64,000 bases of DNA, from assembly GCA_023213395.1 (NCBI GenBank), contig CM041465.1:50289741-50353740 (forward strand), in the 5' to 3' direction. Shown piece by piece: positions 2,262 through 63,341 of the stretch. The translations under genes were made by a program, and so were the position numbers. Each line of letters begins with the position of its first letter. Within the stretch, counting starts at the first letter, position 1. The notes beneath the pieces were generated by a model. It did not search any database, was not told where the DNA came from, and saw only the letters and a list, made by a program, of their open reading frames with translations. This stretch comes from Cycas panzhihuaensis. Taxonomy: Eukaryota; Plantae; Cycadophyta.

Positions 2262-2327
2262 GTAGAAGGAAGGGCTCTAGATCGATCACAAGCCGATGAA
2301 AATAAATCTCATTTTTACCCTCCTTCC

Positions 2328-2336
2328 TTTATATAT
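2328..2336 (-). promoter_or_regulatory. Candidate TATA box for the antisense PMD unit
   Basis: Minus strand reads ATATATAAA about 70 bp upstream of the inferred mutated start codon at 2261. Confidence 0.35.
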
Positions 2337-2897
2337 GTGGGGGCCCCGAGGGGCCCTTTCTCCTTTTCCTTTGTTGTGGTAGCCTTTGAGACCATCTCTT
2401 TAACCTCATCGCCTTTACCTTTAGGGTTTGTCCCCTATTTCATCTCCATGGCCTCCATTTCAAGCTTTTTGGTGCATTTATGATGACTCCTTCAGTCTCC
2501 TATAGACCCCTTTTTGTCTTATTTTTTATGTTGCTCTAAAATATACCCATGTTTATACTCTTTTAACTCATTTCACCATTCTAGATCCATTTTTGTTACC
2601 TGTATAAGCCTTTAAGGCTCCCAAAGGAAGTGCCTCCCCTTTTCTAAACCTCACCTTGGTCCTTTTAGTGACCTTTGGAGCCCCAAAAGGGCCTTTTCGT
2701 CATCGTCTCCCTACCTCTTTGTCGGGTTGGTTTCCTCACCCCTAGGTAGCCTCTTCTCTGGACTCTCCTTTATGACCCATATTCATAACTTTCTGAGTGA
2801 TTGTAGCCCTGCCGTTATCTTTTCTCCCTTCTTTCTGCCTATTAACCTTGTCGTCACTATTTCTCCTACCATTTGACAGAAACCTTGCTCTTTCACT

Positions 2898-5770: not shown

Positions 5771-6289
5771 GTCTCTCTCTTCTCGACGATCCTCCTTGAG
5801 GAGCCTATTAGGTTGCCTAATTACCCAGGTTTCAGGATCGTGCCTTCTTCCATTTTGCAATCCATTTACATCTCTTAAAGTTGGTTACTGATGAGGTTAA
5901 ACTATAGTGACCACCAGGTTTGTTTCTTCACCTTGTCCTTCATACCACCCATGGTATGAAGCCCTTGTATGTCAATCTCCACTTGTACATACCTCTTGCC
6001 TATGTTATCTCATTGATTATGCTCATGACTATTAGCATCATTTACCATACATAGGTGTGATGGGGGCATCCCCCTCATCCACCCTCTCTTTCATTAGATT
6101 CTAGGGTGATGCATAGGCAGCCCCTATGTTTCCCATCTCTCCTCCTTGTCCACATGTTTCACCATGACACTCAGCACACCCCTGGACGATGACACCATTA
6201 TAGTTTGATATATGATACTAATCTTTATGTTGACAACATTCACCATCACATCATGCTTCTGAGCAACGAGGCTCTACTGCCAAGAGGGC

Positions 6290-8816: not shown

Positions 8817-9441
8817 GCTTCTAAAAGGTAAAGAGAGAGAAGCTAAAATCAAGAAAGAGAGAGAGAGTTGTTGTTTTTTTTCCTTTTCTTTTTTAATTCA
8901 AATATAAATCAGAAATAGTAACAACTCACAATATTACCTCGCTTATTATAAAATAAAAATAAAAGATGCATTACATAGCACATATACATCTAGTCATCCA
9001 TTTCAGGTGTTGATACCTTAGGGAGATCCTCCTTAAGGTCCTTCTCCTCTTCTTTAGTAAGGCATCACTTTGCCTTACCTCTTTTTTGAAGTTGGCCTTT
9101 TCCCATCCAACTTCTTCCTTGTACCTTCGTTACCAATTACCCATTTCTTATTTGTAGGTATACTTTTCTTCCATTAGGGTCTACCTCCTCCTTTTCCCTC
9201 TCCTTGGGAAAGGTATCCCTCATTTCAATCCTCCTTCCTTGGCCATCCAGGATAGGGGGTCCCTTTGAGGCTACTCGACAAACTGAGGAAGCCCTCTTAC
9301 CCATCTTGAATCTAAGAAGGTACTCACCATAAGGGAAGGCTTGTGCACCATTTGTAGGTCCTTAAACCTACGTTTTGATACACGGATGCCCTTTGTGGTT
9401 AATCCTTTCTATTGCTTCCAAAGATCCTTTAGCCCCATGAT

Positions 9442-31162: not shown

Positions 31163-31544
31163 ATGACAATGGGAGACCACCTACGTTGTGCTCTTATTGC
31201 TGCCCTGGTTTTGTATTTCGGTGTTTCCTCATCTGTTTCTGAACCTGCTAATACCGGATGCTACGATGTTTCCTGTGATTCCATATCGATTACAAATTTG
31301 AGTGTAAATGATTTTCGGGAGAAAGGAAGGGATGAGTACTTGCAATTATTTGTGGAAGAGACGGGGTGGTACAATAGCATTGTGCTCGGCTCGCTGTTGC
31401 CCCGAAGGATTTGGTCGCCGTTGCCGCACGTTCTGCAGACATGGCTGCGCAACTACCTTGCTGGAAACATTCTTTATTTCCTCACGGGAGGGCTTTGGTG
31501 CTTCTATCTCTATTACTTAAAGCGCCACGTCTACTTCCCCAAAG
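31163..31544 (+). CDS. STE1: Delta7-sterol C5(6)-desaturase, exon 1 (partial CDS)
   Basis: [69 protein letters not shown] closely resembles the N-terminal part of Arabidopsis STE1/DWF7. Phase-1 donor CCCAAAG|GTTTAT at 31544/31545. No stops. Confidence 0.93.
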
Positions 31545-33574: not shown

Positions 33575-36500
33575 CTATGGTTTAGTCTTCATAAGATAAG
33601 TCTATGATTTTGGATTGAATGTTATGTGGTTGACGGATATTTGTTTTATTCTCAATTCTATGAAATTTAGAGGGTTTCATTTACAAGTTTCGATATTTGA
33701 TTCAAATTTGTAATTTGTTGAGAGTATTAATTTAGTGTACTAATGGAAATATATGGATGTGGTGCCTAAATTAAGCATGTATTTGTTTGAACAAGTGGGT
33801 CCACAAACTCAATTGTTTTGGGAAGATTTATTGTGGCCATGCTTAATTTGTTATGGTCAATTCTTGTTGAGAGAAAGTCATGGGTTTCATGGGGTTCGTA
33901 TGAAGGTAGCAGAAAACTTATAGAGGTAGCAATGTGTTTGATTTGAACTTGCCGAACTCAAATCGAGCTTTCTTGGCATCCTGTGTTGACGACTATTTAG
34001 CGCATCGGCATTTTGATACCATCCGGTAACATAATTGTCATGTGTCCTTCTTATCCCTTGATGGTTGCTGTGCTTAGAATTTTGTAACATATAAAGCAAC
34101 TTTGCAACAATCACTACATATGCAACATATTCAATTTCAACATGAACAACCAAACATCAATCACATAAGATGCACCTGATTTTCTTCATAACTCATATTT
34201 TATTAATCAACATTGAATATGTTCACTAGAACTTTACATCGCTTTTAATGTTTGACTTTCATTGTAGAGAGGACATCATACGACTTAATCAATTGGCTCT
34301 CCCCCCTTTAGAATGTATCATAAGACTCAATTTCTTGGCTCTTATTGTTGAACCAACAAGAGAAACGACTTACTTATATTTTTTTTACATAGCCAAAATG
34401 TTAAAAATTTGAAAGAGTACAACTTTACAACATAGCTTTTGACTCTTCATAACACAAAACCCTGATTAATGATAATCATGTGTTGCTTCGTATATTTGTA
34501 TGTTAGTATTGTCATACGAACTAGCTCTAGGAGTTTTGTGTAGAGCCATCCTAAGAAGCACCAACAATTTCAAAACCATTCCATTCCTATCAGAACCATC
34601 CCATAGCTGTCCTTGCATTCCCAAAAACTTTTTAGAAAACTTCCCAAAAACTTTCTAGAAAACCTTTAGGAAAACTTCCCAGAAACTCCTTTACTAGATT
34701 CTTATTAGTTTGCATTGGTTTTTTACTCAATCACATGTCACTATCATTCCTGGAAATGTCCATGACTGTTCCCAATCATCCCAAAACCAATTTCTTTGCC
34801 TACATCTATCCAAGGGTTCAAAAAAATGTTTTGAGCATCCTTGCCTAATGTTGCCAAAATCCCTGTTGTTATCTTGACAAAATTTTTTGGTCATGGGTCA
34901 CCTTCCCCCACATATTTTCTTGAGATGGTTGTGTAGCTCACTGAGTTGCATATCTCTCCTTTGTGCTTCATCCCTTCATTAATTTTTATCAAGTTTTTTG
35001 AAACACTTTTTGGAACCCTTATGATGAGATGATTTCACTTGAATTTCCATTTTGTTGTTTTGTTTAGGGCTTTTGTAGGGCTTTATCCATTCTCGTTGTT
35101 TTGTTTAAGCTTCCTTTTTCTTTATTTCTCAGTGTTGTAAAGTGATTCATATGGAGTTATGGATTTTCTATTTTTGGTGTTTGATTTTTTTTTTTTTGTA
35201 TTTTTGTTTCTATGTATCAAGATGGAAACAATTCCTTGATACCAGGATAGTTTTGATTGTCCTCAACTTCAAGCAAGACATTTATGGTACAACTGATAGA
35301 TTCCTCCAAGAAATTTGTCCAACCCTAATTGTGGTAGGATTTGAGTTTGCTACCCTTGACCATTTCAGGCAATAGTCGACTTGCCAGTTCCCTTAATTGG
35401 ACAGTGCCATTCTCATACAACTCTTCAATCAGGTATGGCCCTTTCTAGTGTATCTTTAATTCTCCCTAATGCATTTGAGGTTTGTTGTTGAATTGCCATA
35501 CTCAATCACTTTTTTTGAAATATGATGTCTTGATATGGTGGTCGTGTGATGCCATTTCTGCCTTTTCCTTGCTGTGATTTGCTTTGTTAGTTTCTTTGTA
35601 TTGTCCCTTGATTTATCTTTGGTTTTGCCACTATGACTTGTAGAAATGTGGCTATCATGCATTCCTTTTGTTTATAGTTATTTCCATTGCCAAGGTAATT
35701 TTTTTCGAAGTTGTCATCTATGTCAAAATATTCAGCCCTGCATTTCTCTTCATCCATATCAGTATAAAATTCCTCATCCCTAGCTGTGTTTGGATATTAA
35801 TCACTATTATCCTTACAACAATGCTTAATTGCAATTTCACAACTATCCATATTTTTAGACTCCATATTATGATTCATATCAGTGATAATTCTCATATTAT
35901 AATAGTTAGTACTTGGTGTATTTACTCCATATGCTTCTTGCAACTAATTGTATACATATGAATTTCCATCACCACCTTCAGAGTTCAAGCTTGGTTGCAA
36001 TTTTTCGTAACTCTTGGGCTCTTGCTCATGTGTGATATTGTAGCAACCTTACAGAATTCTTCTAACAAATTTTATAGAAATAGACAAAATATCCACGAAA
36101 TGCACTTGCAAAATATCCAATCAAGAGAACAATAATACAAATCCACTTGAATACTTATGACATACAAATATAAAATGGTATGAAATGAATATAAACCAAA
36201 TAGATACAAGATTACCAAATGACTCCGCAATCATTGTTGATAATGAATCCCTCTTAGAGGCGAGGTGCCCTCCACAATGCTCCCAAAAGGGCCGAAAATA
36301 TTACAGTCCAAGACTTCTCGGATGATGTAAAATGAGGCCGCAAATCCTCTTTAAATAGGTGGCCGAAAGAAAGTAATAGAAGTCGGCCAGAAAAGGTGAT
36401 AATCTTCTTAATATTGCTCAAATAGAAGTCGGCTAGAACTTCTCAAAAAACTGGCAGGCTGACTTTAAATAGTCATAACTTTTGATATAGATGTCAGAAT

Positions 36501-36592
36501 TAACTTTCGTCTAGATTGTTGGAATCGATGTTCAGAGGCCTTTGATTTGAATGGTAATAAGCTATATTTTGACCATATTTTGAAATGCTGCA

Positions 36593-37583
36593 AGTCTCCC
36601 CCCCTCAAAACATGCTTTGCCCTCAAAGCATGGGTAAATTGTAAATTGTATCCATTCTTCAGATTTCCATGTGGCTTCACTATTGTCCATTGCTTTCCAT
36701 TTGATAAGGTATTCTGTGATTTCATGAGAACGCAACTTTTTGGTACATTTTTGAAGGATACCTTTTAGTTCAACTGATAGTCCTCCTTCTTCATCTAATA
36801 TTGGAAGTTCTGTTTGGATTGGTACCCTCTCTCCTAACTTCCTCTTAAGGCAAGAAACGTGGAATGTATTATGTATTCGACAATTTGGGGGAAGCTCTAA
36901 TTTGTAGGCTACATCTCCAATTTTAGCCAAGATTTTATAGGGTCCAAAAAATTTCGGTTGAAGTTTATTTTGCCCTGTTTGTTTTAGGCTATTTTGCTTG
37001 TAGGGTTGTAATCGCAGAAAAACCCAGTTTCCTACCTTGAATGTACGCTCTATTCTTTGAAGATCAGCTTGTTGCTTCATTCGATTGCGAGCTAAGTTCA
37101 AGTTATCTTTTAAGGTATCCAGTATCTGCCTTGATTGTTGGTGATACTCTTCGATCAATTGTACTTTGGATAGCTGGGTCCAATTAAGGATGGATGGCAG
37201 CTCAAATCCATATAATGCTTGAAAAGGGGACATCCTGGCAGACGTGTGGTAAGTTGTATTATACCACCATTCTGTTAAATGAAGCCATTTGTGCCACTGG
37301 TGTGGGCTTTGAGTGGTGAAATTACGTAGATACCCCTTTATGCATTTATTTACAGCTTCTGTCTGACCGTCTGATTGCAGATGATATGCAGAACTCATAT
37401 TAAGCTTCATGCCCGCCAATCTGAACAATTCTTGCCAGAAATGACTGGTGAATTTGGGATCGCGATCGCTAACTATCACTTTTGGAAACCCATGGAGACG
37501 ATATATCTCCTTGATGAATAACTCTGCTATTTGAGGAGCTTTTGCTGTTACTTGAATTCCCCTAAAATGTGCATATGTGGTTA
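36593..37583 (-). pseudogene. Integrase C-terminal half and chromodomain of the chromovirus
   Basis: IVSDRDPKFTS, QSDGQTEAVN, GPYKIL, FHVSCLK, EYLIKWKAMDNSEATW; frame is open into the PPT. Confidence 0.93.
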
Positions 37584-39039
37584 TGTTGGAATAATGTGCA
37601 TTCCCATTTACATGTCCATTTAAGTTCATTTCATGTCATTAGAATAATTGCTCACATGGAATATTCTTGATGAGAATATTCTAGTGAGAGAAGATTCCTA
37701 GTCAAAGTTCTAGAAGTCAAAGATGCTCAACTATTAATGAGTTAGTTTGAGCACACCATAAATCATGGAGTTTGTTGAACCAACTCCTATGTTTAGACAT
37801 AGTGTAAAACTATAAATATGTATTTGTACCTTACATATTTTCTTAATGAGATTTGGAGAGTTGTGAGTCATTGTCGTATTGTCATTTCTTGTGTATGTCA
37901 CATGTGCTTTATGACATGTTTCCAACTCATATCCTCTCATTCCAACATGGTATCAGAGCTTAGGTTCTTGACATTTGATTTCTGCCATGTTAGCCTTAGC
38001 TTTCTAACAGCTATATGCTGAAATTTAGTGCTGATTTCTGTCCATTTCTTACATGTATGCTTGTGAAATTTTGTCTTTAACATTAAAAAAAAAAAAAAAG
38101 ACATTGCAACTGTGAGAAATCTATGTACTATATAACTGTGAGAAAGCTCTGCTACGGATTTGCCCCTCGTCCCTATCCGTTCTCTGTTATGGGCTGCCAC
38201 TAGTCACTAACAATACTCAGTCTGGTGCCAGGAGCTGTCAGACGCCATGCAGGACGGTGGAGAGTCGTCACCTGCCAGAGTGGAGCTGCCGTATTCCTTC
38301 GTGATTCCTCCATCTGTAGGAGTCGCCAGCGCCCTACGCTAACAAGCTGTCTCTCTGTGTAGAGCCGCCCTCCATCGCTAGACATCTGTCTGCTGTCTGG
38401 AGTTGCAACGCTCCGTTGACTAGTGGCTAGATGCCATAGCTGTCAATCGCCTCGCACAGCCGCCATTGTGGAGAGCCGTAGTAGGTCCCTGCACCTGACA
38501 TCCAGATGCCATCACTCGGAAGCTGTCGCCATTTGAGACGTTGAGCTGTCCTCACCGTCGTCAGCATCACCCCGTACTGTCGCCGAACGGGAGGCGTTGT
38601 CACCTACAGAGTCGAGTCGACTCGACCCGAGCTGAGCCGCTTAGCCGCCAGACGGCGTTCATCGTACTAAGCCGCCGTCGCCAAACTATCTCCGCAGTCA
38701 CGCCAAAGACATTAATCGAGACGGAGATGCATCGTCACTGGAAAGAAAACACTAAGATTGAAAACCAAATTCGCTGTCACAGTTGCCATCTAACAAAGGT
38801 TGCCGCCATTTCGAAATTCGACGCCGAAGAAAAAAATCAGAATGATTTCATCATCAGATATATTTTAAAGCTAATGTTATAACATTAGGTTATAATATTA
38901 GTATATTCTTTCAGATATTCCTTTTTCAATATTGATTTTCTTTTATAGTTTGCCACTTTATTAGTTTAAAAGATTTATTTCATCTTTTAAGAATATATCT
39001 TTTTGTGGCATTTGAAGATAAATTCTTTAGAGGAATATT

Positions 39040-41100
39040 ATTTTAAAGAGGACATTAAGCATAATGTATTGTCCTTTGTCCTTTTTAAGTGTATTTCATC
39101 TTGGCGACATGTAAAAGGGTACTTTAAGAGGTCTTGTATTAAGTAATTTGTCCTCTTTTAAAAGTACACCTTTGGGCTCTATTCTAAAGAATACTTTAAG
39201 AGGATTTTTATTCAACTTAATCCTCTTCTTTAAAAGTATTTATTGGCGGACATGAAAAGTACCTTAAGAGGTATTTTTAACACATTAAATCCTCTTTATA
39301 AGGTACATATTGGTGGCTCAAAAGAGTACTAGTGGCAAGCACATTGAGAGGATTTCGTCAAGTATTTTATCCTCTTTAAAAGTGACATTATTAGTGGCAT
39401 ACAGATGCTTTAAGAGGATTATAAAGGCGGTTTATCCTCTTCTTATAAAAGCATCTTTTGGTGACATAAAAGAGCACTTTGGGCAGCATAAAATAGTACT
39501 TCAAGAGGATTTGTCTTATGCAATTCATCATCTTTTAAAGGGTGCCATTGGTGACATGTGAAAGAGTATTTCAAGAGGTTTTTAAAGCATTTTTTTCCTC
39601 TTTGAAATATATTATGATGGCTTCATTTGAAAGATACTTTAAAAAGGATCTTGTTAAGTATTTTATCCTTTTTGTAAAAAGTATCTATTGGTGGCACAAA
39701 AGAGCAAATCTTTGGCGGACATGAAAAGTACCTTAAGAGGAATTTTTAATACATTTAATCCTCTTTTTTAAGGCACATTTTTGGTGATGTAAAAGGGTAT
39801 AAAACCTTAAGAAGACTTTAAGCTTTCAAGCTTAATATTTGTCTTCTCTTCAAAGGTATTTATTGGCTTCAATTTGGGAGTACTTCAAGGACATTTTCTC
39901 ATGTACTTAATCCTCTTTAGAGCATATATTTTGACTCTATTTGATGAGGATTTTACAATGTACTATGAGAATATTTGTAAAGGCGAGACTTTAATGTACT
40001 AAGTCCTCTTTTTATAGAACTTTTAGAGGACCTTTTAATGTACTTATTCCTCTTTATTGATGGGTTTTTAAACCTTTATTTGTACTCTCTTAAAGTGTAA
40101 TTCACCTTGCGGTCACTGAGTGATGTGGCACTCATACTTGCGGTGATTTAAAACACTTTCTCCTTAATTTCTTAATTACAGACTTCTTAAAATGTCTGTG
40201 AATTACTAGCTAAAATTTGCTAGATTCACTAAGGCAAAAATGAAAGTCCTATGTAATATAACACTTCCAGTCTTACAAAGACCTATGGGAGTTGTTGAAG
40301 GAGAAGACAGGAAGCCTAATCAGACCCAATTAAAGGCAACATAGTGCGACACATAAAAGGGCATGATATCTTAAGAAGATTTTAAGCTTTTAAGCTTATT
40401 ATTTTGTCTTCTTTCAAGGGCATAATACCTTAAGAAGTTTGTCTTCTTTTAAAGGTATTTTATTGACTTCATAAAACAGTACCTTAAGAGGATTTTAAAT
40501 ACTTTAATCCTCTTCTTTAAGGTACATTATTGGTAGGATAAATATGCTTTTAAGAGGATAATTAATGTGGCACATCCTCTATTTTTTTTAAAAGCATTTT
40601 TTTGGTGACATTTTAAGAGGATTACTTCAAAGTATTTTATCCTCTTTCAATGATGTTTATGGTGGCAAAATAAATACTTTAAGAGGATTTTTTAATGCAT
40701 CTAATCCTCTTCTTTGGTGGCACAAAAAGAGCACCTTTGGCAACACATTAAAAGGATATAAAACCTCATGAAGACATTAAGCTATCAAGCTTTATTTTGT
40801 CTTCTTTCAAGGGCATGATATCTTAAGAAGACTTTAAGATTTTAAGCTTAATATTTTGTCTTCTTTGAAAGGTAATTTTTGGCTTCAATGTAAGGAGTAC
40901 TTCAAGGGCATTTTCTCAAGTACTTAATCCTCTTTAGAGCATATATTTTGACTCTATTTGACGAGGATTTTTCAATGTACTTTGAGAAGTAATTTGTAAG
41001 GGGAGTTTTTATTGTACTTAGTCCTCCTTTTAGAGCACTTTGAGAGGACCTTTTAATGTACTTATTCCTCTTTAATTGATGTATGATAAAGGTGTTTTAA
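39040..41100 (+). repeat. Array of ~60-75 bp hairpin-forming units
   Basis: Recurrent TAC(T/C)TTAAGAGGAT-loop-ATCCTCTT..AAAGTA stems separated by TTGGYGRCA; roughly 20 units. Confidence 0.9.
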
Positions 41101-41380
41101 ACCTTTATTTGTACTCTCATTAAGTGTATTTCGCCTTGCGGTCACTGAGTGATATAATACTCACACTTGCGGTGATTTAAACACTTTTTTTCTCCTTACT
41201 TTTCTTACAGACTTCACAACATGTCTGTGAATTACTGGCTATAATTTCCCAGATTCACTAAGGCAAAATGTAAGTCCTATGTAATGTAACACTTTCAGTC
41301 CTACAAAGACCTATGGGAGTTGTTGAAGGAGAAGACAAAGCCTAATCAGACCCAACTAAAGGCAACATGGTGCGGCACAA
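39791..41380 (+). repeat. Internal duplication (~560 bp blocks 39791-40353 and 40809-41380) including the relic gag start
   Basis: Both copies contain CCTTGCGGTCACTGAGTGAT, ATGTCTGTGAATTACT and ACAAAGACCTATGGGAGTTGTTGAAGGAGAAGACA. Confidence 0.92.
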
Positions 41381-41967
41381 TATATCACAACATGGTGTCA
41401 TATGACATGACACGACATGACTTGGCAGAATTGGAACCTGAAACACTAGCATTCATCAAATTGCTAGTAATTGATGAGTAGATTGCTCGTCTTTATTTGC
41501 TTACATATGATGCAAAATGACTCTTAATGAGTCTTGATACTTGCTTTACTCTTAAAAATGTCTAGTCTCTTCATGAGCAGAAACTGAAGGAGACAAGCGA
41601 CTTATGTTGTTGAATTGTAGAGTATATAACTCTTATCAACCTGCATGATATTTATCATACCTTAGACTACCTTAACCTCTTCATTTATGAGTTAGGTAGC
41701 TTACTATTGCAGCTTATTATGTAATGGTGATGATAGTTGTAGTGTTGAGGTGTTAATGAAAACGCCTAACAATTCTATGAAGCAACAATGTCTTGGAAGA
41801 TGACAATAGTGCATAAAATCAAGCACGATATTGTATTCCAAGATTATGACATTTGGAGAAGCAGGACAATGAGCGTGTTTTTACGCATTGATGATCACAA
41901 CTAACATGTACTACATGAGGATGATGAAATCCTCTTTGGGAGCTTTGTAAAAGGCAACTGCAAAGGC

Positions 41968-42211
41968 AAATCAACGACAGGATGTGGATGTCACTAAATT
42001 CTGGTTGATCATAATCAACGACAGGATGTGCATTTGACCACTTAAGTTCTGGTTGACTCAATTCAACGATAGGATGTGGATGACACTTAGTTCTGGTTGA
42101 TCCAAATCAACGACAGGATGTGCATAAAACCACTGGATTCTGGTTGATCTCTTGTAGCAGTTGAAGGCCAAATCGATGTGGATGTGCATAGCACCTAATT
42201 CTGGTTGATCA
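41968..42211 (+). repeat. ~45-bp minisatellite (4-5 units) derived from Copia RNase H coding sequence
   Basis: Unit AATCAACGACAGGATGTG....TTCTGGTTGATC; translates as KSTTGC..., matching RKSTTGY.F.LGSG.ISW. Confidence 0.85.
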
Positions 42212-42913
42212 CTTGATGTGGATAGCTTATTCCACCAAGACGGTATGCAAAGCAGCAGTCACAGCATTTGAGAAGCCTTTTGGGCTTAATTGACTTCTTT
42301 GACTTCTTCAATTGTTCTACTACAACAAAATGCCTTCCAACTATCGAAGAATTGGGATTCCATGACAGATTCAAGTTTGTGGAAGACCACCATCATTCTA
42401 TTTGACAGCATATGGAGCACGGCATAGTTAAGTTAATATATTGTCCCTCAAGTTGTATTCTCACTTAGACTTTAAGTTGTGAGAATTTTTTTTGAGAGAC
42501 TTAGGACACTGATGTTTATGTAAGGAAATGAACTTAACATTATGGGGGGGTGTTGGAATAATGTGCATTCCCATTTACATGTCCATTTAAGTTCATTTCA
42601 TGTCATTAGAATAATTGCTCACATGGAATATTCTTGATGAGAATATTCTAGTGAGAGAAGATTCTAGTCAAAGTTCTAGAAGTCAAAGATGCTCAACTAT
42701 TAATGAGTTAGTTTGAGCACACCAAAAATCATGGAGTTTGTTGAACCAACTCCTATGTTTAGACATAGTGTAAAACTATAAATATGTATTTGTACCTTAC
42801 ATATTTTCTTAATGAGATTTGGAGAGTTGTGAGTCATTGTCGTATTGTCATTTCTTGTGTATGTCACATGTGCTTTATGACATGTTTCCAACTCATATCC
42901 TCTCATTCCAACA

Positions 42914-45900
42914 AATCAATCCATAACAACAAAAATAGTATCCTTTCCTTTTGATTTTGGTAGCCCCATGATGAAGTCCATAGATATCTCCTCCCATCTT
43001 TGTTTCGGAATCGGTAGAGGCTGAAGAAGACCTGGAACATTTACATTCTCTCATTTGTTTCTCTGGCAGTGATCACATTCTGCTACAAACTTCTATATTT
43101 CTTCTTTCATTCCTTTTCAGAAGAAATTTTCTCGAATTTTGCGATAAGTTGTCTACTCCTATATGGCCTCCCATTGGTGAAGCATGGGCCTCTTCTAAGA
43201 CCTTTGCTTTGATTGTCGTTGCTACAGGCACTAGCATCTTACCTTTTCGCAAGATTAAATTTCCTTGGAGAGAGTACTTGGTATTAAGTCCTTCCTTGAT
43301 TTCTTGCAGTGCCTTTTGAGAATGAGCATTCTCATCGTAACTATTGACTAGTTCCTCTGTCTATGCTGGGTTAATTATGGTAATGGCTTTTAATGATGCT
43401 TTATCCTCTTCATGATCTTCTGCTATGGATCTTGATAATGCGTCTGCTATGATGTTCTCCTTTTCTTTCTTGTAAACTATTGAAAAGTCAAATGCTTGTA
43501 ATCTGCTCACCCACTTTTGTTGTTCCTCTATTAAAGATTTTCGATTTAGAAAATATTTCAAACTGTCGTGATCAGTCTTGACGATAAATTTATTTCCTAG
43601 CAAATATTGTTGCCACTGTTCGATGGAGTGCATAATGGCTAGCATTTCTTTGTCGTATATTGGTTTGAGGCACTCATGACTATTGAGCCTACGACTTTCA
43701 TATGATAGTGGTCGATCTTCCTGTAATAAAACCGCTCCCAACCCAAAACCGGAGGCGTCACATTCAATAGTGAAGGGTTTTGAGAATTGTGGTAGTGTAA
43801 GAACTGGGGCCGTAGTCATAGCTGTCTTTAATTGTTGGAATGCCGCTTCTGCTAATTGGTCCTATTTAAATGCCTCTTTTTTTGTCAAATCTGTTAGAGG
43901 TGCAACTATATGAGCATAACCCTTGATAAATTTGCGTATGATCCCGACAGCTCCTAAGAATCCTCGAATTCCTGTAACATTCTTAGGTGTGGGCCAGTTA
44001 ATAATCGCCTCGATCTTCTTTGAGTCAATTTGCACTCCTTTGGAAGATATTATATGTCCCAAATATTCTAGCTCTGTTTGACCAAATGTACATTTCTTTT
44101 TGTTTGCGAATAATTGTTGGTTTTGTAATAACTGGAGGATGATCTGAATGTGTTGAAGATGCTCCTGCCAAGAACGGCTATAGATTAGGATATCATCAAA
44201 AAAAGTTAGCACAAATTTTCGAATATATGGCTTGAGGATCTGGTTCATCATATTTTGAAACGTTGCGGGGGCATTTGTTAGCCCAAAAGGCATAATCCGA
44301 AATTCAAATAGCCCTTCGTGTGTGCGAAAAGCCGTCTTATGCGTGTCTTCTTTTTTGATGCGAATTTGATAGTATCCAGAGCGCAAATCAATTTTTAAGA
44401 ACTTTGCTCCATGAAGTTCATCCAAAAGGTCATTGATACGAGGGATCGGGTATCTATTCTTGATCGTTAATTTATTGAGAGCCTGATAATCTCCACACAT
44501 ACGATATGATCCATCTTTCTTTCATGCAATTATAACTGGAGATGCGAAGGGACTACTGCTCGGCACGATGATTCCTTGTTGGAGAAGATCTTGAGTGATG
44601 TGTTCAATCTCTTGTTTACGATGGAATGGGTGCCTATATGGCCTAATATTGACAGGGGCCGATTGAGGAACCAAATCAATCGCATGCTCATATCCACGAC
44701 TAGGAGGAAGTTCAGGTGGTAGTTCCTCAAAAACCTTACTATATTGGTTAATTAGTTCTTGCACCTCTGTGGGAACTTCTTCTGTTGTTACCTTATAACA
44801 GGAAATCATGAACGAGGTGGGATTTTTTCGAAGTATCTTTTCCATTTGCTGAGATGATACCAATTGTGCTGGAGGAATGTTGGGAGCTTGTAACTTGTAC
44901 TTACGTCCCTTTTGGTGAAAACACATAAATCGCGTCCGAAAATTGGTAACAATGTTTCCCAAGGTTTGAAGCCATTGTACTCCTAGAACCATGTCAACCC
45001 CGTCGATAGGCATGGCAAACATGTAAGTTAAGGTCGAGTACTTCGCAATACGTAAGCTTACTTGTTGGCAATAACCACCACAAGGCATAGTCCTACCATT
45101 TGCTATTGCCACTTGGAATATATTGAGTGGCTTTACTGTGAGACCTAACTTTTCTGTAGTAGGACGATTTATGAAATTGTGTGTACTACCACTATCTACC
45201 AAAATGGAAACCTCTGCATTTTTTATTAACCCTAGAAATCTTAATGTCTGCGGTGCACGCGTCTCCCCACTGATGGCTTGAAGTGATATTTGAATATTGT
45301 CCGGGTCTGTACTCAATAACTCCTCTATCTGGGCTTCATCTTCTTGGACCAATGCTTCCTCTTCTATAATTTCTTCCCTAGTTTCATCAGGGAGAGGGTC
45401 TTCTTCATTATTCATCATGAACATCTTCTTAGGAGGGCATCTATGTTCCCGATTATACTTTCCTCCACAACGAATACATGTTCCATTCTTGATGTGTTTT
45501 GCTCTTGACATTCGTTCATCTTTTTTCTCCCCTATAGGAGCACCGACTTTAGTTTCAGACTGTGTCCAATTTAGTTTAAATTGCTGGCTGGGAGGTCTTT
45601 CAAACTCGGTTCGACGAATGAAACTTTGTCTTCCTTCTCTAAATTCTACTTCAATGTTCCTGGCATGGTGTATGGCATCGATCAGGAAGCTCACTTCCAT
45701 GGTCTTTAGTCGGTACCTGATATTACCTCGAAGACTTGCTATGTATACTTCTACGAGTTGAGGTTCACTAATATGGGCATCCACCATACTATGCAGTGCT
45801 TGGAACTGTTCAGTGTAAGATTGTACCTTACCGACCTGTTGTAACCTAGTAAGCTGGGCTAAATAATCCGTTTTCGTTGTATCTTCATATTGCTAGAATA

Positions 45901-46395
45901 GAGACTTCTTAAAAAAATCCAATTGTAGTGGATTGTTCCCTCATAATTTCTTTGCCACTAATGAAAAAATTGTAAGGCTTTTTCGTATAAGTGCAATGCT
46001 ACCACCACCAAATTTTCTTTATTGGTTAAAGGGGTGGTTTTGAAGTAGACCTCCATTTGCATCACCCAACTACGAATATACTGAGATCTATCTGGGTCAA
46101 ACTTTTCTAGTTGAAATTTAGTTCCCTTAAGATCGAGCCCAGCCTGATCTCCTGAGTATTCCCCTTCTTGGCTCTGCTTCTCTTCTTTAGCTCTACTTTG
46201 AAATTCAAAATCTTTTTTTGGAGCCAATAGAATATCACAAATTTCTTGTATATTCGATTTCAATTCCTTGTACTGGGTTTGCATTAGCGTGATACTACCG
46301 TCCAAATGGTCCACCCTTTTTGACACGTCCTCGATTCCCTGGGAGGCTTGGAGCACCATTTTTCCTATTGTGGTTTTTCCTGACCTTAACTCCAT
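42914..46395 (-). pseudogene. gag-PR-RT-RH-INT(N) of the chromovirus, with few stops and frameshifts
   Basis: ORFs 45958-46437, 44522-45787, 43862-44500 and 43361-43819; integrase [13 protein letters not shown] at ~42960-43000. Confidence 0.93.
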
Positions 46396-49300
46396 TCTAT
46401 TGAAAAAAAATTTCTCAAATATTTTTTGTAGAGACACGCTAAATACCTGCTTTGAATGAAGCTCTGATACACCACTCGTAGCAACCTTACAGAATTCTTC
46501 TAACAGATTTTATAAAAATAGACAAAATATCCACCAAATGCACTTGCAAAATATCCAATCAAGAGAGTAATAATACAAATTCACTTGAATATTTATGACA
46601 TACAAATATAAAATGGTATCAAATGAATATAAACCAAATAGATACAAGATTACCAAATGACTCCGTAATTATTGTTGATAATGAATCCATCTTCGAGGCG
46701 AGGTGCCCTCCACAATGCTCCCAAAAGCGCCAAAAATATTGCAATCCAAGACTTCTCGGATGATGTAAAATGAGGCCGCAAATCCTCTTTAAATAGGCGG
46801 CCGAAAGATAGTAATAGAAGTCAACCAGAAAAGGTGATAATCTTCTTAATACTGCTCAAATAGAAGTCGGCCAGAACTTTTCAAAAAATTGGCAGGTTGA
46901 CTTTAAATAGTCATAACTTTTGATATAGATGCCAGAATTAACTTTCGTCTAGACTGTTGGAATCGTTGTTCAGAGGCCTTTGATTTGAATGGTAATAAGC
47001 TATATTTTGACCATATTTTGGAATGCTACAGATATTCATTACCATCGATTCTTCTACAACCTTATATGCTCTTTGAAATACTTAGATTTTTAGCCATTAA
47101 ATCATTTGCGATAATGTAATGGTTAACTTTAACTATTCTGATAGATTCTCTAGCAGTTTCAATTTCTATAGAATGTTTTTCAAGGGAATGTTGTTGAATA
47201 AATTAGCCACATTGATTTATGTGGCCTCGATTGCTTGTGGCCTCTTACTACAGGGACCTCACTTTGTTTTGGGGATGCCCTCCATAATATACTTGCTCCA
47301 CTATTGGCTTGGGTAAGGTGGGGCTGTTCTTTTCCACTTCATTGGCTGCTTCCTCTAATGCCTTCTTTCCTTGGGCAAAGTAGTCAATTTTCATACCATT
47401 CTTCTTAGGATTAGTTGCCAATTCACTTCTTGTTTGTAGATTTAAGACTTTGAGTGTGTTGGGCTCAAACGACATCAAGTTACTTGTTCTCATGCTCAGC
47501 GGGCAAATTTTCGAAGGTTGATTACATGGTCCACAATTCTATTGTTGGTGACGTATTGCTTTAGTCGAATATGATGACCTTACTTCTCCTTTGCCTTGGC
47601 CATTGCTTTGAGTGTTTCTCCCTTTGGGGTTACAATAACAATCCTTGATTATGTGCGTGTCTGTATCACATATGTGACACCACTTTTGTTCTTTGTTCAT
47701 ATTTTTTGGGTTATGAAAACATTCCTTTGTGGTGTGAGTATTCATGTCGCAGATGTGATGCCACTTCAACTCTCTTATTACTTTGTTTTTATGATTAAGG
47801 TAGCACTCTTTTGTGTCAAATGTTTCTTAACCTTGCAATTTCTTTCTTTTTTTCGACTTCTTATGGCTCTTTTTTCATCATAATTTTGCATGCCTTTTTT
47901 GCTCTTAATTATTTAATTTTTTTCATGTAACATTTTCAACACATTATCTTGTGTGCTTAATTCCTTCAACTCTAACTCTTTTTCGAACCTAATAGCTAAC
48001 TCTTTTTCTTTTGCAAATGATTTATTAAGTCATTGTTTTGATGTGTTCCTTGATTAAGGTTGCAGTCCATTCATGAAGTAGTTTTTAATAGAAATTTGGT
48101 AGTATCTCGCTGCTATTAATGCTTGCTACTATAATAGACATGCGACTTGAATAATCCAATATCGATTCCCTTGGTCGTTGCTTAAGGTTCCCCAATGTTT
48201 GTAAGACAACCTTGTTACTTCATAGTTTTTGAAACCTTTTTTGGAAGGCGTCACAAATTTGTCGCTAGGTTTCTTGGTTGCTTTTAATTCTTTGTATCAC
48301 ACTAGTGGCACTCCCCTTAACATGCATACAAATCTTCTTTATCTGCTGTTCTATTGAATCTGTCATTCCATCAAAATTTAGGTGGTCTCATACACTTTTG
48401 TTATGACAATTAGAGGATGCCATCTTGGGAGGTGTCCTTGGTGTTAATACTTCCTTTTGTTTTACTAATTTTAGGTGACAAACCTTTCTTTAGTGTTGTT
48501 CCTTCCTCTTCCTTGAATAACAAATTGCTGTTATGGGCCTTCACTTGAATGATTCCTTCTACACCTAGTATTTGGATTGCTAATGGTGTTTTTATAATAA
48601 ATAAACAAACTGTCGCTTGGTTAAGGTGCAATATTGAATAGCTTTTTGGTAAAATAATTTTTTCAACTTGCCTTGGGACCTTTTTTGCCTCTTCTTCATC
48701 ATTTTTCGTGCTCTTTAGCCTTTCTTTTGGATCAAAATCTTCATTATTTTGTCAGAATCTCTTCTGGGTCAAATATGTTAGGCATACTTCTTGCTATCAT
48801 AGTGCCTTCTTCAGTCACAGTTGTTTGGGGTGTTATTCATTGTGAGTAATTTGACTAGGATTGAAATATGCAAAAAATATTAGAGTTATTAGGCAGGATT
48901 GGTCTAGCTTCAAAATTCCTTTCATTCATTAAGAATGTTTGATGTCTAACGTACAAGTCGCTATACAATTATATACAAAGTGTGATTAGTGACGGTTGAA
49001 GAATGAGCAATAATTGCCTTAACATTTGTTATCACATTAAATGATGACCCTATGATTCACCTAATATTCCATTGACCCATCACTAACCGCTAGAACCCAT
49101 GACATAAACATTAATTCAAACACTCTCACTTAATATTTACGTCATTGGCTTTGTCACCAATACGCTATGATTTTGTCAAATTTGTCCCTAACCAATGGTT
49201 TGGTAAAAATACTTGCTAGTTGTTCTTCAATAGCCTTGTACAAGAGCTCAAACTCTTTATTTTCAATTTGCACTTGGATCAAATGGTGACGCACCTCAAT

Positions 49301-50754
49301 GCGTTTGGTGTGAGCATGGAACATTGGATTCTTGGCAATTTTCAATGTACTTTGATTATCACAATATAAGATACTCACCTCATCCTGATGAAGTTCCAAA
49401 TCACCAAGGACCCATCTCAACCAATTGGCCTGACTGAAAAGAGTTAATGTCACAAGGTCGTTACATTAGTTGATTATTTCGAAAAAGGGTTTTAAGTGAA
49501 TTTTAAATTAGATCACTTAAGTGAAATGCACTTTCATGTGCATTATGTGTAATTTCATTTCACCTAACTCTAATGCTCCCTCTCTCAATATAAAAGTAAA
49601 AGCTCAATGGAGGAGATTCATTCTTACCTCCCCATTTTGTGAGAGCTACTTTCTTTCTCTCAAGTCTCTCTTGCTCCTATGTTTGCCTTTGTGTTTAGTG
49701 CATGGAGATGAAGGATAGATCCACTCTTTTTATGTGGTATAAGAGCTTGCTTCCTTCATATTCCTCACTTGCACTTGCAATGGAGCTATCACTTCCTTCT
49801 CCCCCATAATCTATGTGGTGAAGGGGATTGTGAAAGTGAATTTAGAAATATTTTCAAGTTATTATGATAGCATATTTTGTATTGTTTGCTTTTCCTTTCT
49901 CTTTTGCAGGTTTGGAAGCATAATACAAGGAGTTGTAAGGCCCAAGGATTCCAATCCTTTGGTGGCCATTCATGCTATCTCATTCTTCTTTTTCTTTTTC
50001 CTTTTTTGTCCAGTTAACAAGGGAAAATGCTGTCGAAATTTTTCTAGTATTTAAAAGAATGATTGTAAGGGGAGGTTTTACCCATTTTATTTTTAAAGAA
50101 TTTTAAGCCATTTAAAATATCTATCATTGTATGCTCTTATCTTGCCCATATTGAGATCCTGGTGATCAAAAAATGATGGAAATTTCATATGGTATCATGT
50201 GTTAATGAGATATTAGCAAGCTAAAATTTTTGCAGAAATACAATTTGATTGCTGAACTTCACAGGTCTACAAAATCTTTTACAGAGATCCAATTGACGTG
50301 ATTCTAATTGTCAAAGCTGAGGCTTTGAGTCTACTTTCCAGCACAAAAACCAGCACCTAATTTGGATGTTGTATGAGGAAGTTATTGCTTGTTTTAGTGA
50401 ACAATAATTATTTTTAGTAAGAATTCTGGAAAAATATAATTTCTTAACTTTGCGGGGTTGCCAAAAACTTTCCAGAACTCATTTGGACCCGATTCCACTT
50501 TCTGAAGATGAAGCTCTGAGTCTAGTTTGCAGCACAAAAATTGGCACTCCATTTCGACATCGTGAGAGAAAGTTATTGCAAATTTAGTGAAGACTACTTT
50601 CTTTTGCATTAACAAGAAAAAAGTGAAGAAAATTTCTTCATTCTTTTTATAAGGCTTAAAAGCCCATTGTAAAAGTGAGAAAAAAAAACACCTAGATCGG
50701 AGCAATATCTGGTGTCCTCACTCACTTATTAGCATTGCATTTCAACACTTTAAA

Positions 50755-50860
50755 ATCACTCAAAGCAAGCACTCTAAAGACACTTCAAGCAAGCACTCCA
50801 AAAGCACTCCAAGTAAGCACTCCAAGTAAGCACTCCAAAAGCACTCCAAGCAAGCATTCT
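50755..50860 (+). repeat. Short tandem repeat AAGCACTCCAA(GC/GT) in the Copia-3 leader
   Basis: About 8 imperfect 11-13 bp units. Confidence 0.85.
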
Positions 50861-60399: not shown

Positions 60400-63341
60400 T
60401 GTACTCTATCCTTGTCACAAACAAAGCTCGAACAAGAAGGGAACACAGAAGAGAATATCGATCATATTAATAGGACAACATGCTTATATTACCATATAGA
60501 ATCATAAGTAAAATACACCATAGATTGCGGCAAACCTTATTTCATTACCAAAAAGGGGACTGTATTGACCTGAGAAGGGCTGAGTGCAGGCCCAAAGTAC
60601 AATAATGGAAGAACCCTCAACTCAGTACAATGTGAGATATAATGGAAGAAAGGAGGGAAGATCCAATACACTCTCACACACGTATATGTATACCCCCTTC
60701 CTTCTATAGTCTTTCCTCCTAACCATTTTCCAATTAACTTTTAGCTAACTTTTAATTAACTCAATAACAATAATTTATTAACAATAACACTAATTACATT
60801 GGTCATCATAATTATGATCTGGAGTCGTGGTTGTACTCAGATTACAATCTGGTTGCATAACCTTTACGATCTAGTCAGAATCTGGTTGCGACCTGGTCGC
60901 AATTCCTACGATCTGGTCACAATCTTCATGATTTGGTCGCAGTCTGGTTACGATCTAGTTGTAGTCTTCACGATCTGATTGTAATGTATTTGTGATTTGG
61001 TCGCAGTCCTCATATAGATGGTTGCACTTCGTTGTGCTTATCATACTTCTGATCATGCCTGATCGTATTTGATCATAATTTGATTGCAACCAAAATTGCA
61101 TAATTCTTTCATCTTGCACTCATCTCACCCGTCACAAAACCAACGAGTGTCCTCACTCGTACAAACTTTCAAATATTTTCTTAATCCTTCATCCCCCCAA
61201 AATTTGAAATCAATAATATATAGGTGACCTCATTCTTTAAAAGGCTTTGCCATATATGTTTGGGTGAAAACAATCATATTAGGACATGGCCATAATCTAT
61301 TGAGACAACCTTTGATGGTATACTTCTCCACTAGGTCATCTATCCTCCCTTGACGTACCTTGTTATTTTTATGTTTTGCGGAGTCACCTCTCTTCGCTTG
61401 TATGTTTTGTAGAGTCATCTCTTTCTACTTCTATATTTTGTGGTGTCGCCTCTTTCCGCTATGTTAATCTACCTACTCAACTACATTATATTTTGCAGAG
61501 TCACCTTTTTCCGCTAAATTATCTATCTACTCAACTATATCATTGGGTTCCTCGTAATACCAAGTATTACACAGCAGAATTGTCATATCATAACTGACAA
61601 CCATCACCAAAAAGACCCAATTACATCTTCATATGAGGGACTAAATAAATTGTGGTCACACTAGATACAATTCAACACTTTCCACAATGATGATGAACTC
61701 TACATGAGGGCACAAACATCAGCCAAAACGCATGGGTAACTGACTGCTACATCTGCCAGTTGCTAGAATGTCCATCAGATACATAATTCATCATCCTATT
61801 AACTTGAAGTCAATATAAGAAGTGATCATCCACTGAAGCTCATGGATAATCGGCTGCTGAGCCTGCTGGTTTCTAGGACGTCCCTCGTATACGTGGTTCA
61901 TCATGGCTGATTGAAACTCAAATTTGGGGTTTATTCTATGCCCATGTATATAGTGTTGCAGAGCAAACTTGTTATTGCTAAAAATTGATACAACATTATT
62001 GATGCTAGTAGTTATTGCTGCACTTAATGCTACCATTAGAATCCTGTTGTGGACAAGAAAAACCATCATAAAATTTGAGATAAAGAAAACTTGCCCATTG
62101 TTGCCTCATATACCTAGATCATGGAATTCTATACCTTTTGACATTTGTAATCACTATGGATTGCACTATGAATCAATATTGGGTCATTGCAATAATTTTG
62201 ATGTGTGTCCGGATCACACCTCAACCTTATTGAACATATAACCCATTCATGACTAGATCGAAGAAATATTAGGTGTTTGGATGACCAAGCCTCGACCTAA
62301 AATAATGTTATTCAACTAGCCATATACAATAAAAATACCAAGTCGTACCCAACAAATGTCTAAAAGAAAAAAAAACTTAAGTATGCCCTGTTGATCAAAT
62401 ACTACATCATAGATAAATCACTTCCCAGACTGTCATCAATCCATTGTCTAGTCTCAATGCCTGGTTCTTTAGGATCAACCTGAAATGGGTATGATAAGGA
62501 ATAAGCTCTTCATGTCTATCCTTTGGCCATCAATTCCTAAGCTTGAAATAGACCGGGAAAAGTGTAAGAAGCAGTGATTGCACTCCAATTCACCACATGA
62601 GGAGAAATGAAATCATTGAGGCATCTAGGAGGCTCGTGTATTCTTGGTGAGTAAACTGAAATTCTCAGAACTCTACCCATCATATCATAAGCTTCTTGGA
62701 AAGTTAAATTACATATAGAGTTCTAAGCATTGTCTGCAATTGTCTTATTTCTTGGACTGCTCTTTGTTTTAGGCTAGCTTATCATTTTTCGGCTCTTCCT
62801 TAACTTGTTCCTCTTTGGCAAGTTCCTCACTGGTATCTTTAATGTCACTAGGTTCTGTTGGGGATTCCTTCTTTGCATCCCCATTCACATATATGTATAA
62901 CCCCCCCTCTCTATTTACATGAATGTTCCTTTTCTAGTCTTTCCTCCTAACCATTTTCCAACTAACTCCCAATTGACTTACAACTAGCTTTTAATTAATT
63001 CATTAATAATAATTTGTTAACAATAACAATAATTACATTAGTCATCATAATTATGATTTGGAGTCCTCCTTGTACTCGGATTGCAATATGATTGTACAAC
63101 CTTTACGATTTGGTCACAATCTAGTCGCAGTTCCTATGATTTGGTCACAGTTCTTATGATGTGGTTGCAATTTGGTCACAGTCTTTCACAATATGATTAC
63201 AATGTAGTTGCGATTTGGTTTGTTGTCCTCACGATTTGGTCACACTCTGTCGTGCTTGGTCGTACATCTGATCACACTTGGTTGTATATGATCTTAATTT
63301 GATTGCAACCAAAACAACATAATTCTTTTATATTGCACACA
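60400..63341 (-). mobile_element. 2.9-kb deleted LTR element inserted in Copia-4 gag (superfamily unclear)
   Basis: TG...CA ends with perfect TSD TCATG (60395-60399 / 63342-63346). Removal restores NYARIMILKNQLYNL. 3' LTR 60400-61122 with PPT-like GGGTGAGA next to it; partial 5' LTR ~62888-63341. Confidence 0.85.
60820..61090. repeat. 11/22-bp tandem repeats (ACGATCTGGTCGCAATC-like) within the LTR; second copy ~63055-63310
   Basis: Repeated GAT(C/T)TGGT(C/T)(G/A)CA units in both LTR copies. Confidence 0.85.

What the first reader, a model, noticed from the sequence alone, without database searches (positions are those of the whole stretch)
39040..41100. Array of covarying RNA hairpins with a conserved linker in the leader of a recently mobile non-coding retroelement
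Seen: roughly 20 units of 60-75 bp, each a long stem-loop whose arms change together. Examples: GTACCTTA-AGAGG...CCTCT-TTATAAGGTAC (39259-39306); AGATGCTTT...AAAGCATCT (39403-39456); AGATACTTT-AAAAAGGAT...ATCCTTTTT-GTAAAAAGTATCT (39632-39686); AATACTTT...AAAGTATT (39190-39240); AGAAGAC...GTCTTCT (39803-39857). Loops vary, the 3' arm usually has a small bulge, and units are joined by TTGGYGRCA. The array lies between the PBS and the relic gag start. Established: packaging and dimerisation signals of LTR elements map to this region, and non-autonomous elements compete for helper Gag. Inference: compensatory change implies selection on RNA structure. This could be an amplified packaging/Gag-binding signal, a polycistronic small-RNA precursor array or a silencing decoy. 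It is sense to the host gene, so it would be part of the STE1 pre-mRNA. This is the best candidate for an undescribed system in the window.
Basis: partly seen in the sequence, partly recalled or inferred. Interest (0 to 1): 0.8.

Follow-up and report, generated by a model that had tools for sequence, protein, structure and literature searches.

The report
Hairpin array in plant retrotransposon leader
A protein-less jumping gene of a seed plant carries about 23 repeats of one predicted RNA hairpin in front of its broken capsid gene, with the two arms changing in matched pairs, and these likely act as a repeated handle by which a helper element's capsid protein picks out the full-length RNA for packaging.

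Summary
The array is real: 23 units of one bulged stem-loop (39030-41090) lie inside a 5,330-bp non-coding Ty1/copia-type derivative (37584-42913; LTRs differ by 1 substitution and 1 indel). Each unit's arms pair better with each other than with other units' arms. Nine distinct compensatory changes occur against 1.4-3.2 expected neutrally; a blind alignment gives a weaker signal in the same direction. In four laid runs of other organisms, 1 of 20 polymorphic sites falls in core stems (6.6 expected), while units are lost, reordered or given new loops.

Corrections: the array is two clusters, each ending at its own copy of the gag start (a ~1.03-kb duplication). The exact linker follows only 6 of 23 units. 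There is no 5-bp target duplication. STE1 is incidental. Helices of at most 10 stacked pairs argue against a microRNA cluster.

New: an acceptor-like splice site lies 10 nt before both gag AUGs, so the array may sit in a leader intron and mark unspliced RNA. Best reading: a multivalent Gag-recognition/packaging signal, probably inherited from the parent (0.5). Binding, splicing, strand and the parent were not shown. New variant of a known kind; interest 0.5.

The parts
37584..37947 (+). 5' LTR, 364 bp, TG...CA
   Evidence: 1 substitution and 1 indel against the 3' LTR
37948..37959 (+). Primer-binding site of the initiator tRNA-Met type (TGGTATCAGAGC; type recalled)
   Evidence: most plant copia groups use tRNA-Met (PMC6317226, passages)
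38100..38900 (+). GC-rich leader segment, unstructured, nearly absent from laid contigs of other copies
   Evidence: GC 0.53, z +1.0; summed depth 2-7 over 38164-38736 against thousands over the array
39030..39870 (+). Hairpin cluster 1: 11 units, 15-17 pair stem, 1-6 nt 3' bulge, mostly 14-16 nt loops, UUGG-type linker
39879..40075 (+). Degenerate units that refold into longer multi-bulge stems (duplicated at 40896-41090)
   Evidence: one compensatory transversion, 39902/39965 vs 40919/40982
40092..40159 (+). Gag-proximal hairpin, copy 1
   Evidence: z -3.07; same fold in copy 2
40157..40181 (+). Acceptor-like splice site (pyrimidine tract + CAG), 10 nt before the AUG; splicing not shown
   Evidence: pyrimidine score 0.81, reached by 24 of 1443 YAG sites on the + strand
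40192..40345 (+). Putative gag 5' relic, copy 1, broken by stops and frameshifts; identity rests on position and a recalled motif
   Evidence: no Pfam hit, no homologue
40350..40890 (+). Hairpin cluster 2: 8 units, several truncated at recombination joints
   Evidence: z -5.1
41122..41186 (+). Gag-proximal hairpin, copy 2
   Evidence: z -2.78
41183..41210 (+). Acceptor-like splice site, copy 2, 10 nt before the AUG; splicing not shown
   Evidence: score 0.95, reached by 3 of 1443 YAG sites
41221..41380 (+). Putative gag 5' relic, copy 2, broken
41969..42210 (+). Second array: five 42-46 nt repeats, each able to fold into a weak bulged hairpin; arms nearly invariant
   Evidence: whole-region z only -1.0; summed depth 115,000-140,000 in X1
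42358..42447 (+). RNase H end relic of copia type
   Evidence: 40% over 30 aa to another copia RNase H in the window, E 0.008
42541..42550 (+). Polypurine tract
42551..42913 (+). 3' LTR, 363 bp
36039..47030 (-). Host chromovirus (Ty3/gypsy) whose integrase gene the element interrupts; LTRs 94.6% alike, 5-bp target duplication present
   Evidence: contigs join across the empty site in X14, X16, X17

Best explanation
The array is a set of 23 related, predicted bulged RNA hairpins in the leader of a non-coding Ty1/copia-type derivative, kept base-paired by matched changes, and it likely acts as a multivalent signal by which a helper element's Gag selects the unspliced full-length RNA for packaging. 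Shown: the units, their covariation, stem conservation among sister copies, unit-level gain and loss, and an acceptor-like site 10 nt before each gag AUG. Inferred: the leader holds 30 AUGs, so the parent probably spliced this U-rich stretch out to translate Gag; only unspliced RNA would then carry the hairpins and be copied. Derivatives that lost almost all of gag-pol, and in some copies 1.4 kb of leader, therefore kept the array. Recombination between similar units during reverse transcription would add, drop and shuffle units. What is read is probably shape (an AAGAGG/CCUCUU helix, a 3' bulge, a single-stranded UUGG linker), not the loop. The array is probably inherited from the autonomous parent rather than invented by the parasite.
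For: Own arms pair better than swapped arms: outer 105/144 vs 85.4, inner 160/184 vs 145.7, p 5e-5; p <= 0.002 in 8 of 8 one-unit-per-family draws. Nine distinct double changes vs 1.4-3.2 simulated, p <= 0.005. Blind MAFFT alignment: 1/500 shuffles reach the paired fraction, 3/500 the covariation score. Four runs of four other organisms cover 30 of 30 bins of 39395-39870; 1 of 20 polymorphic sites is in core stems, p 0.003. Unit-sized skips, reorderings and new loops between the same stems. A short-leader form (joint 38030>39457) keeps the array. Acceptor-like sites at 40181 and 41210. Position between PBS and gag matches where Ty1 dimerisation and Gag-binding sites lie (PMC6844567, abstract); parasitic BARE2 keeps its dimerisation and packaging signals (PMC3735527, passages).
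Against: No binding, packaging or probing data. No GT-AG joint ending at either acceptor among the 15 joints shown (71 not shown); two RNA-guess contigs run unspliced through 40181; no donor was identified. Strand unresolved: both strands fold well and G-U vs A-C is 16:8 and 9:3 (about p 0.15 by my arithmetic). Registers were partly hand-set; on the blind alignment the number of pairs with double changes is not exceptional (64/500) and RNAalifold keeps only 6 pairs. All 9 double changes are transitions. This copy has 4 private changes, all weakening stems, three of them in one unit. With no span limit only 10 of 23 units keep their own hairpin at P>0.5. Summed depth is far higher over the LTRs and the second array than over this array, so many family members may lack it or carry a diverged form. 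Loops are not conserved, unlike many protein-binding hairpins.
Confidence: 0.5

Rival explanations
1. The hairpins are a host-facing RNA control element, not a Gag site: they keep the leader intron unspliced, export the unspliced RNA from the nucleus, or let ribosomes bypass the AUG-rich leader.
For: Same covariation evidence; the array ends at an acceptor-like site and the gag AUG; 14-30 upstream AUGs depending on leader form. How plant LTR RNAs leave the nucleus has not been studied directly (PMC12786077, passages). Repeated export elements in retroviruses are recalled, not tested.
Against: A translation role would not explain retention in copies whose gag is dead; export or intron retention would. 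Splicing itself is not shown.
Confidence: 0.22
2. No selection on RNA structure: a palindromic ancestral unit was amplified in tandem, and template switching between its arms during DNA synthesis keeps them matched.
For: Tandem arrays are common in non-coding parts of large plant LTR elements (PMC6317226, passages). The unit has an inner ~23-nt periodicity of GTAC-like cores. Both strands fold. This copy tolerates broken stems.
Against: Arm-to-arm correction should erase the 3' bulge, yet all 14 complete units keep it. Polymorphism avoids stems among sister copies, though cross-mapping between units inflates loop variants. The array survives deletions that removed its neighbours.
Confidence: 0.14
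3. The array is a source of hairpin small RNAs or a decoy for the silencing machinery.
For: Hairpin-forming palindromes in maize Sirevirus LTRs are siRNA hotspots (PMC4728375, passages). Energy per GC content is high in several units (MFEI up to 1.3).
Against: Longest stacked helix 6-10 bp and 31-62 nt stems are short of what plant Dicer-like processing needs (recalled knowledge). No Rfam match. Covariation changes the would-be guide sequence.
Confidence: 0.07
4. The repeats act as DNA: an enhancer or insulator array of protein-binding sites behind the promoter.
For: GTAC occurs 21 times, 10 per kb against 2.2 elsewhere; GTAC is an SBP-box core (recalled). AAGAGG and CCTCTT are 13-16 times enriched.
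Against: GTAC is replaced in several units by paired variants that destroy the motif but keep the stem.
Confidence: 0.07

Closest known systems
LARDs (large retrotransposon derivatives, e.g. Sukkula) and other non-autonomous plant LTR elements
   Same: LTRs, PBS and PPT without coding capacity; internal part over 4 kb (PMC9033089, passages); said to specify conserved RNA secondary structures (PMC7215508, passages).
   Different: Keeps recognisable relics of a copia parent; the structure is a modular array of one small hairpin with unit-level turnover. The original LARD paper was not read, so its folds were not compared.
Leader packaging and dimerisation signals of Ty1, BARE1/BARE2 and retroviruses
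   Same: Located 5' of gag; kept by a parasitic derivative, as in BARE2 (PMC3735527, passages). Placement inside an intron would mirror retroviral Psi (recalled).
   Different: Ty1 uses a few palindromes and a pseudoknot (PMC6844567, abstract), not about 20 repeats. The introns reported for BARE1, EVADE and Ogre are in or between coding parts (PMC3735527, PMC12786077, passages; EVADE position recalled), not in the leader.
Palindrome-rich region of maize Sirevirus LTRs
   Same: Copia-type element, variable number of hairpin-forming repeats, arms more conserved than centres (PMC4728375, passages).
   Different: Those are 17-nt GC-rich palindromes in the LTR promoter region; these are AU-rich 50-60 nt bulged hairpins in the transcribed leader, with compensatory changes.
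Cassandra TRIMs and retrozymes
   Same: Non-autonomous plant LTR elements that carry a conserved structured RNA (PMC7215508 passages; PMC4918200 search listing only).
   Different: No 5S or hammerhead match here; the structure lies outside the LTR.

Membership tests
LARD / non-autonomous LTR element | Two LTRs with PBS and PPT | tested here: met
LARD / non-autonomous LTR element | No protein-coding capacity | tested here: met
   only one stop-to-stop frame of 100 aa or more (127 aa), no Pfam hit
LARD / non-autonomous LTR element | Internal part over 4 kb | tested here: met
   4,603 bp (37948-42550); short-leader, unduplicated copies would fall below this
LARD / non-autonomous LTR element | Conserved internal RNA structure across copies | tested here: met
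   tested over 476 nt only across copies
LARD / non-autonomous LTR element | No gag or pol domains in any member (strict LARD wording) | tested here: inconclusive
   RNase H relic E 0.008; gag relic unconfirmed
LARD / non-autonomous LTR element | 4-6 bp target-site duplication | tested here: not met
   flanks GGTTA and AATCA, one shared base; holds for this copy only
LARD / non-autonomous LTR element | Mobilised in trans by an autonomous partner | not testable with these tools
   no genome held; no partner found
Ty1/copia ancestry | RNase H as last pol domain before the PPT, copia-type sequence | tested here: met
   weak (30 aa, E 0.008)
Ty1/copia ancestry | Copia-type gag | tested here: inconclusive
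   no Pfam hit in 4 frames tried; resemblance is recalled
TR-GAG | Intact gag ORF | tested here: not met
Cassandra / retrozyme | 5S or hammerhead motif | tested here: not met
   0 Rfam matches at gathering score in 64 kb
Polycistronic microRNA cluster | Stem long enough for a 21-nt duplex plus lower stem | tested here: not met
   at most 22 pairs, longest stack 10; criterion recalled
Polycistronic microRNA cluster | Precise small-RNA read pairs | not testable with these tools
   all runs laid were contigs
Packaging signal (Psi) | Located 5' of gag on the genomic RNA and kept by defective derivatives | tested here: met
Packaging signal (Psi) | Needed in cis for packaging and bound by Gag | not testable with these tools
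   needs experiment
Packaging signal (Psi) | Absent from the spliced mRNA | tested here: inconclusive
   acceptor-like sites; no spliced joint among those shown

The most novel reading that the evidence does not exclude
A plant copia lineage sorts its RNA the way retroviruses do, with a leader intron, but its packaging signal is a scalable array of one hairpin. Non-coding parasites of the family compete for helper Gag by changing the number of units, as in this copy's duplication of the whole array-plus-gag-start block.
Probability: 0.2. Interest if true: 0.75.

Novelty: new variant of a known kind. Interest (0 to 1): 0.5.

Why it matters
How plant LTR retrotransposons choose which RNA to package is little known outside BARE (PMC3735527, passages), although these elements fill most large plant genomes. 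A 60-70 nt module, present in many natural variants with covarying stems, gives a small substrate for probing and Gag-binding tests. It also gives a way to ask whether unit number predicts the success of parasitic copies. If the leader intron is real, it adds a splicing strategy not listed for plant copia elements in the two papers read on this point.

Tried and rejected
No whole genome is held, so full-length sister copies and the autonomous parent could not be read. Pattern scans of viral contigs (3 loci) and metagenome contigs (14 loci) gave only chance matches: 0 of 17 loci align beyond the 16-36 nt seed region. Protein search with the gag relic: 1 candidate, none scored; Pfam: no gag or RNase H family in 7 relic frames. 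No structure-based look-alike search of the relic was obtained. Rfam at gathering score: 0 matches; H/ACA-like boxes were considered because the linker ends in ACA, but the bulge is one-sided and nothing matched. Expression: no RNA holder is on record; three RNA-guess runs have contigs over the array but also over the flanking chromovirus, so this is no evidence either way. Kissing loops: 5 of 20 loops hold a 6-nt palindrome (1.7 expected, p 0.02), but 4 belong to one unit family; not accepted. Comparison of the two duplicated blocks (7 of 50 substitutions in 178 of 552 shared-pair sites) is circular and carries little weight. Host lineage: the STE1 exon-1 tree leaves the window in an open fork with flowering plants, apart from the Cryptomeria rows, with no starred support. 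Earlier findings by place and by sequence: nothing; words: nothing, one unrelated note. Nine paper searches listed no paper describing such an array; the library lacks most subscription papers, bioRxiv supplements were closed, and no supplements were read.

Full report
Setting. The window is plant DNA rich in nested retrotransposons. Exon 1 of a sterol C5-desaturase (STE1) ends at 31543; no other exon was found in the window. Its core is 80% identical to an Amborella protein and 72% to Cryptomeria, and it has an N-terminal extension as the Cryptomeria, moss and lycophyte proteins do. The tree does not resolve the host; a non-conifer gymnosperm is my inference. The finding lies in an element at 37584-42913 with 364/363-bp LTRs that differ by one substitution and one indel, a PBS at 37948 and a PPT at 42541-42550. 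It interrupts the integrase of a chromovirus on the minus strand (36039-47030). The insertion has no 5-bp target duplication, whereas nearly all surveyed plant elements have 4-6 bp (PMC6317226, passages; that survey selected for TSDs). With recalled substitution rates one difference means roughly 0.1-0.6 million years, with wide error. The only frame of 100 aa or more has no Pfam hit. A 30-aa relic before the PPT matches another copia RNase H in the window (E 0.008). The gag relic rests on position and a recalled motif; Pfam and the protein search did not confirm it.

The observation. AGAGG...CCTCT hairpins occur 13 times in the array and once elsewhere in 64 kb. I delimited 23 units: a PWM scan gave 24 hits, 4 were dropped as false or overlapping, 3 were added and some registers set by hand. 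A unit has an outer stem of 7-9 pairs, a 1-9 nt bulge on the 3' arm, an inner stem of 8 pairs, a loop of mostly 13-16 nt (23-25 in one family) and a UUGG-type linker. Exact TTGGYGRCA occurs 6 times. Cluster 1 folds at z -8.4 on + and -6.6 on -, cluster 2 at -5.1 on both; seven comparison stretches give 0.0 to -3.7 on +. The block 39793-40353 is repeated at 40809-41379 (86%), so each cluster ends in its own gag-proximal hairpin and AUG.

Covariation within the copy. Own arms form Watson-Crick pairs more often than arms swapped between units: outer 105/144 vs 85.4 (16 units), inner 160/184 vs 145.7 (23 units), p 5e-5; with one unit per family p <= 0.002 in 8 of 8 draws. Leaving out the two degenerate C units, 14 family-level double changes fall into 9 distinct column-and-pair types; a neutral star-tree simulation expects 1.4-3.2 (p <= 0.005 for 9). 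All 9 are transitions. On the unfitted MAFFT alignment of 22 units the signal is weaker: paired cells 1/500 shuffles, covariation score 3/500, cells with double change 11/500, pairs with double change 64/500, pair types 292/500; the structure beats all slid versions. The tool warns that related sequences can beat such shuffles. RNAalifold on 11 units keeps only 6 inner pairs. With unlimited span 10 of 23 units keep their own hairpin at P>0.5, because arms of different units are also complementary. G-U against A-C counts are 16:8 and 9:3, so the sense strand is favoured but not shown.

Sister copies. 20 of 24 listed runs hold part of the element, from 13 coded organisms and 14 studies; I laid 8 runs of 7 organisms. 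Four DNA runs of four organisms cover 30 of 30 bins of 39395-39870. Of 24 listed substitutions at 23 places, three are near-fixed differences at which the majority letter pairs and this copy's does not, or only wobbles. Of the other 20 places 1 is in a core stem (6.6 expected, p 0.003) and 4 in the stems read widely (8.6 expected, p 0.027). Cross-mapping between units inflates loop variants, and contigs give no phase. A fourth private change at 39546 shows. So this copy is slightly decayed, mostly in one unit. Joints show unit-sized skips, reordering and new loops between the same stems, and a contig lacking the 1,030-bp duplication. A joint 38030>39457 in X14 and X17, with the same loose end in DNA runs X7 and X13, marks a short-leader form that lost the GC-rich segment and six units but kept the rest; its ends are not GT-AG. 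Summed depth in X1 is 2-7 over 38164-38736, 2,000-9,000 over the array, about 34,000 over the first gag start and over 100,000 over LTRs and the second array; depth is not copy number, but many members may lack this array or carry a diverged one.

An added feature. Both gag AUGs have a pyrimidine tract and CAG 10 nt upstream; by a simple pyrimidine score 3 and 24 of 1,443 YAG sites on the + strand reach these values. The leader has 30 AUGs. The array is 37-41% U and about 31% GC, against 53% GC in the segment before it; plant introns are U-rich (PMC3735527, passages). This suggests a leader intron. Against it: no such joint among the 15 shown (71 hidden), two RNA-guess contigs run through 40181 unspliced, no donor was pinned down, and pyrimidine tracts also precede another gag start in the window.

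Mechanism. The best reading (0.5) is a multivalent Gag-recognition signal on the unspliced RNA, probably inherited from the parent, kept by coding-dead derivatives because only RNAs that carry it are copied, and varied in unit number by recombination. Shown: structure conservation, retention, unit turnover, position. Inferred: splicing, Gag binding, packaging, the parent's state. Rivals: splicing, export or translation control (0.22); neutral amplification with arm-to-arm correction (0.14); small-RNA source or decoy (0.07); DNA binding-site array (0.07). STE1 cannot explain a trait shared by many copies elsewhere.

Comparison. The element is a LARD-like copia derivative; LARDs and TRIMs are said to keep conserved RNA structures (PMC7215508, passages; size definition PMC9033089, passages; blurred naming, bioRxiv 10.64898/2026.03.01.708851, passages, which has no mention of hairpins). 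It fails TR-GAG, Cassandra, retrozyme and microRNA-cluster tests. Ty1 uses leader palindromes and a pseudoknot (PMC6844567, abstract); BARE2 keeps packaging signals (PMC3735527, passages); Sirevirus LTRs have hairpin-forming palindromes (PMC4728375, passages); tandem arrays in non-coding parts are common (PMC6317226, passages); plant LTR introns are reported for few elements (PMC12786077, passages). Nine searches listed no description of such an array; the library is incomplete. Unchecked notes of this scan report covarying hairpin arrays in other retroelements; they are leads, not support, but suggest the theme recurs.

Verdict. Observation confirmed; interpretation partly supported; new variant of a known kind; interest 0.5.

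Noticed in passing
window 41969-42210: Second array of five 42-46 nt repeats, each foldable into a bulged hairpin rich in G-U pairs on the + strand (-8 to -11 kcal/mol), with depth as high as the LTRs; it may be the more universal cis element of the family.
   Followed up: partly
window 37579-37583 and 42914-42918: Young-looking insertion with exact TG...CA ends but only one shared base at the flanks; a small deletion after insertion, integrase-independent capture or an assembly error are possible.
   Followed up: partly
window 38870-38902: A perfect 14-pair hairpin (-13.2 kcal/mol) and two further hairpins to 39031 lie just before the array, in a stretch that few laid contigs cover.
   Followed up: no
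window 37584-37947: The LTR itself folds better than shuffles (z -4.0 on +), with a 12-pair hairpin near 37650-37690.
   Followed up: no
window 39030-41120: GTAC-like cores recur at about 23-nt spacing, three per unit, suggesting the 69-nt unit arose from a shorter palindromic repeat.
   Followed up: partly
window 31163-31543: STE1 exon 1 with an N-terminal extension; no further exon in the following 32 kb, so intron 1 is very long or the gene is broken.
   Followed up: partly
window 33563 and 22919: Two more tRNA-Met-type PBS sites behind LTR-like ends; no related hairpin array follows them.
   Followed up: partly
window 50730-50860 and 61370-61537: Short tandem repeat arrays near other copia remnants; not strongly structured.
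   Followed up: partly
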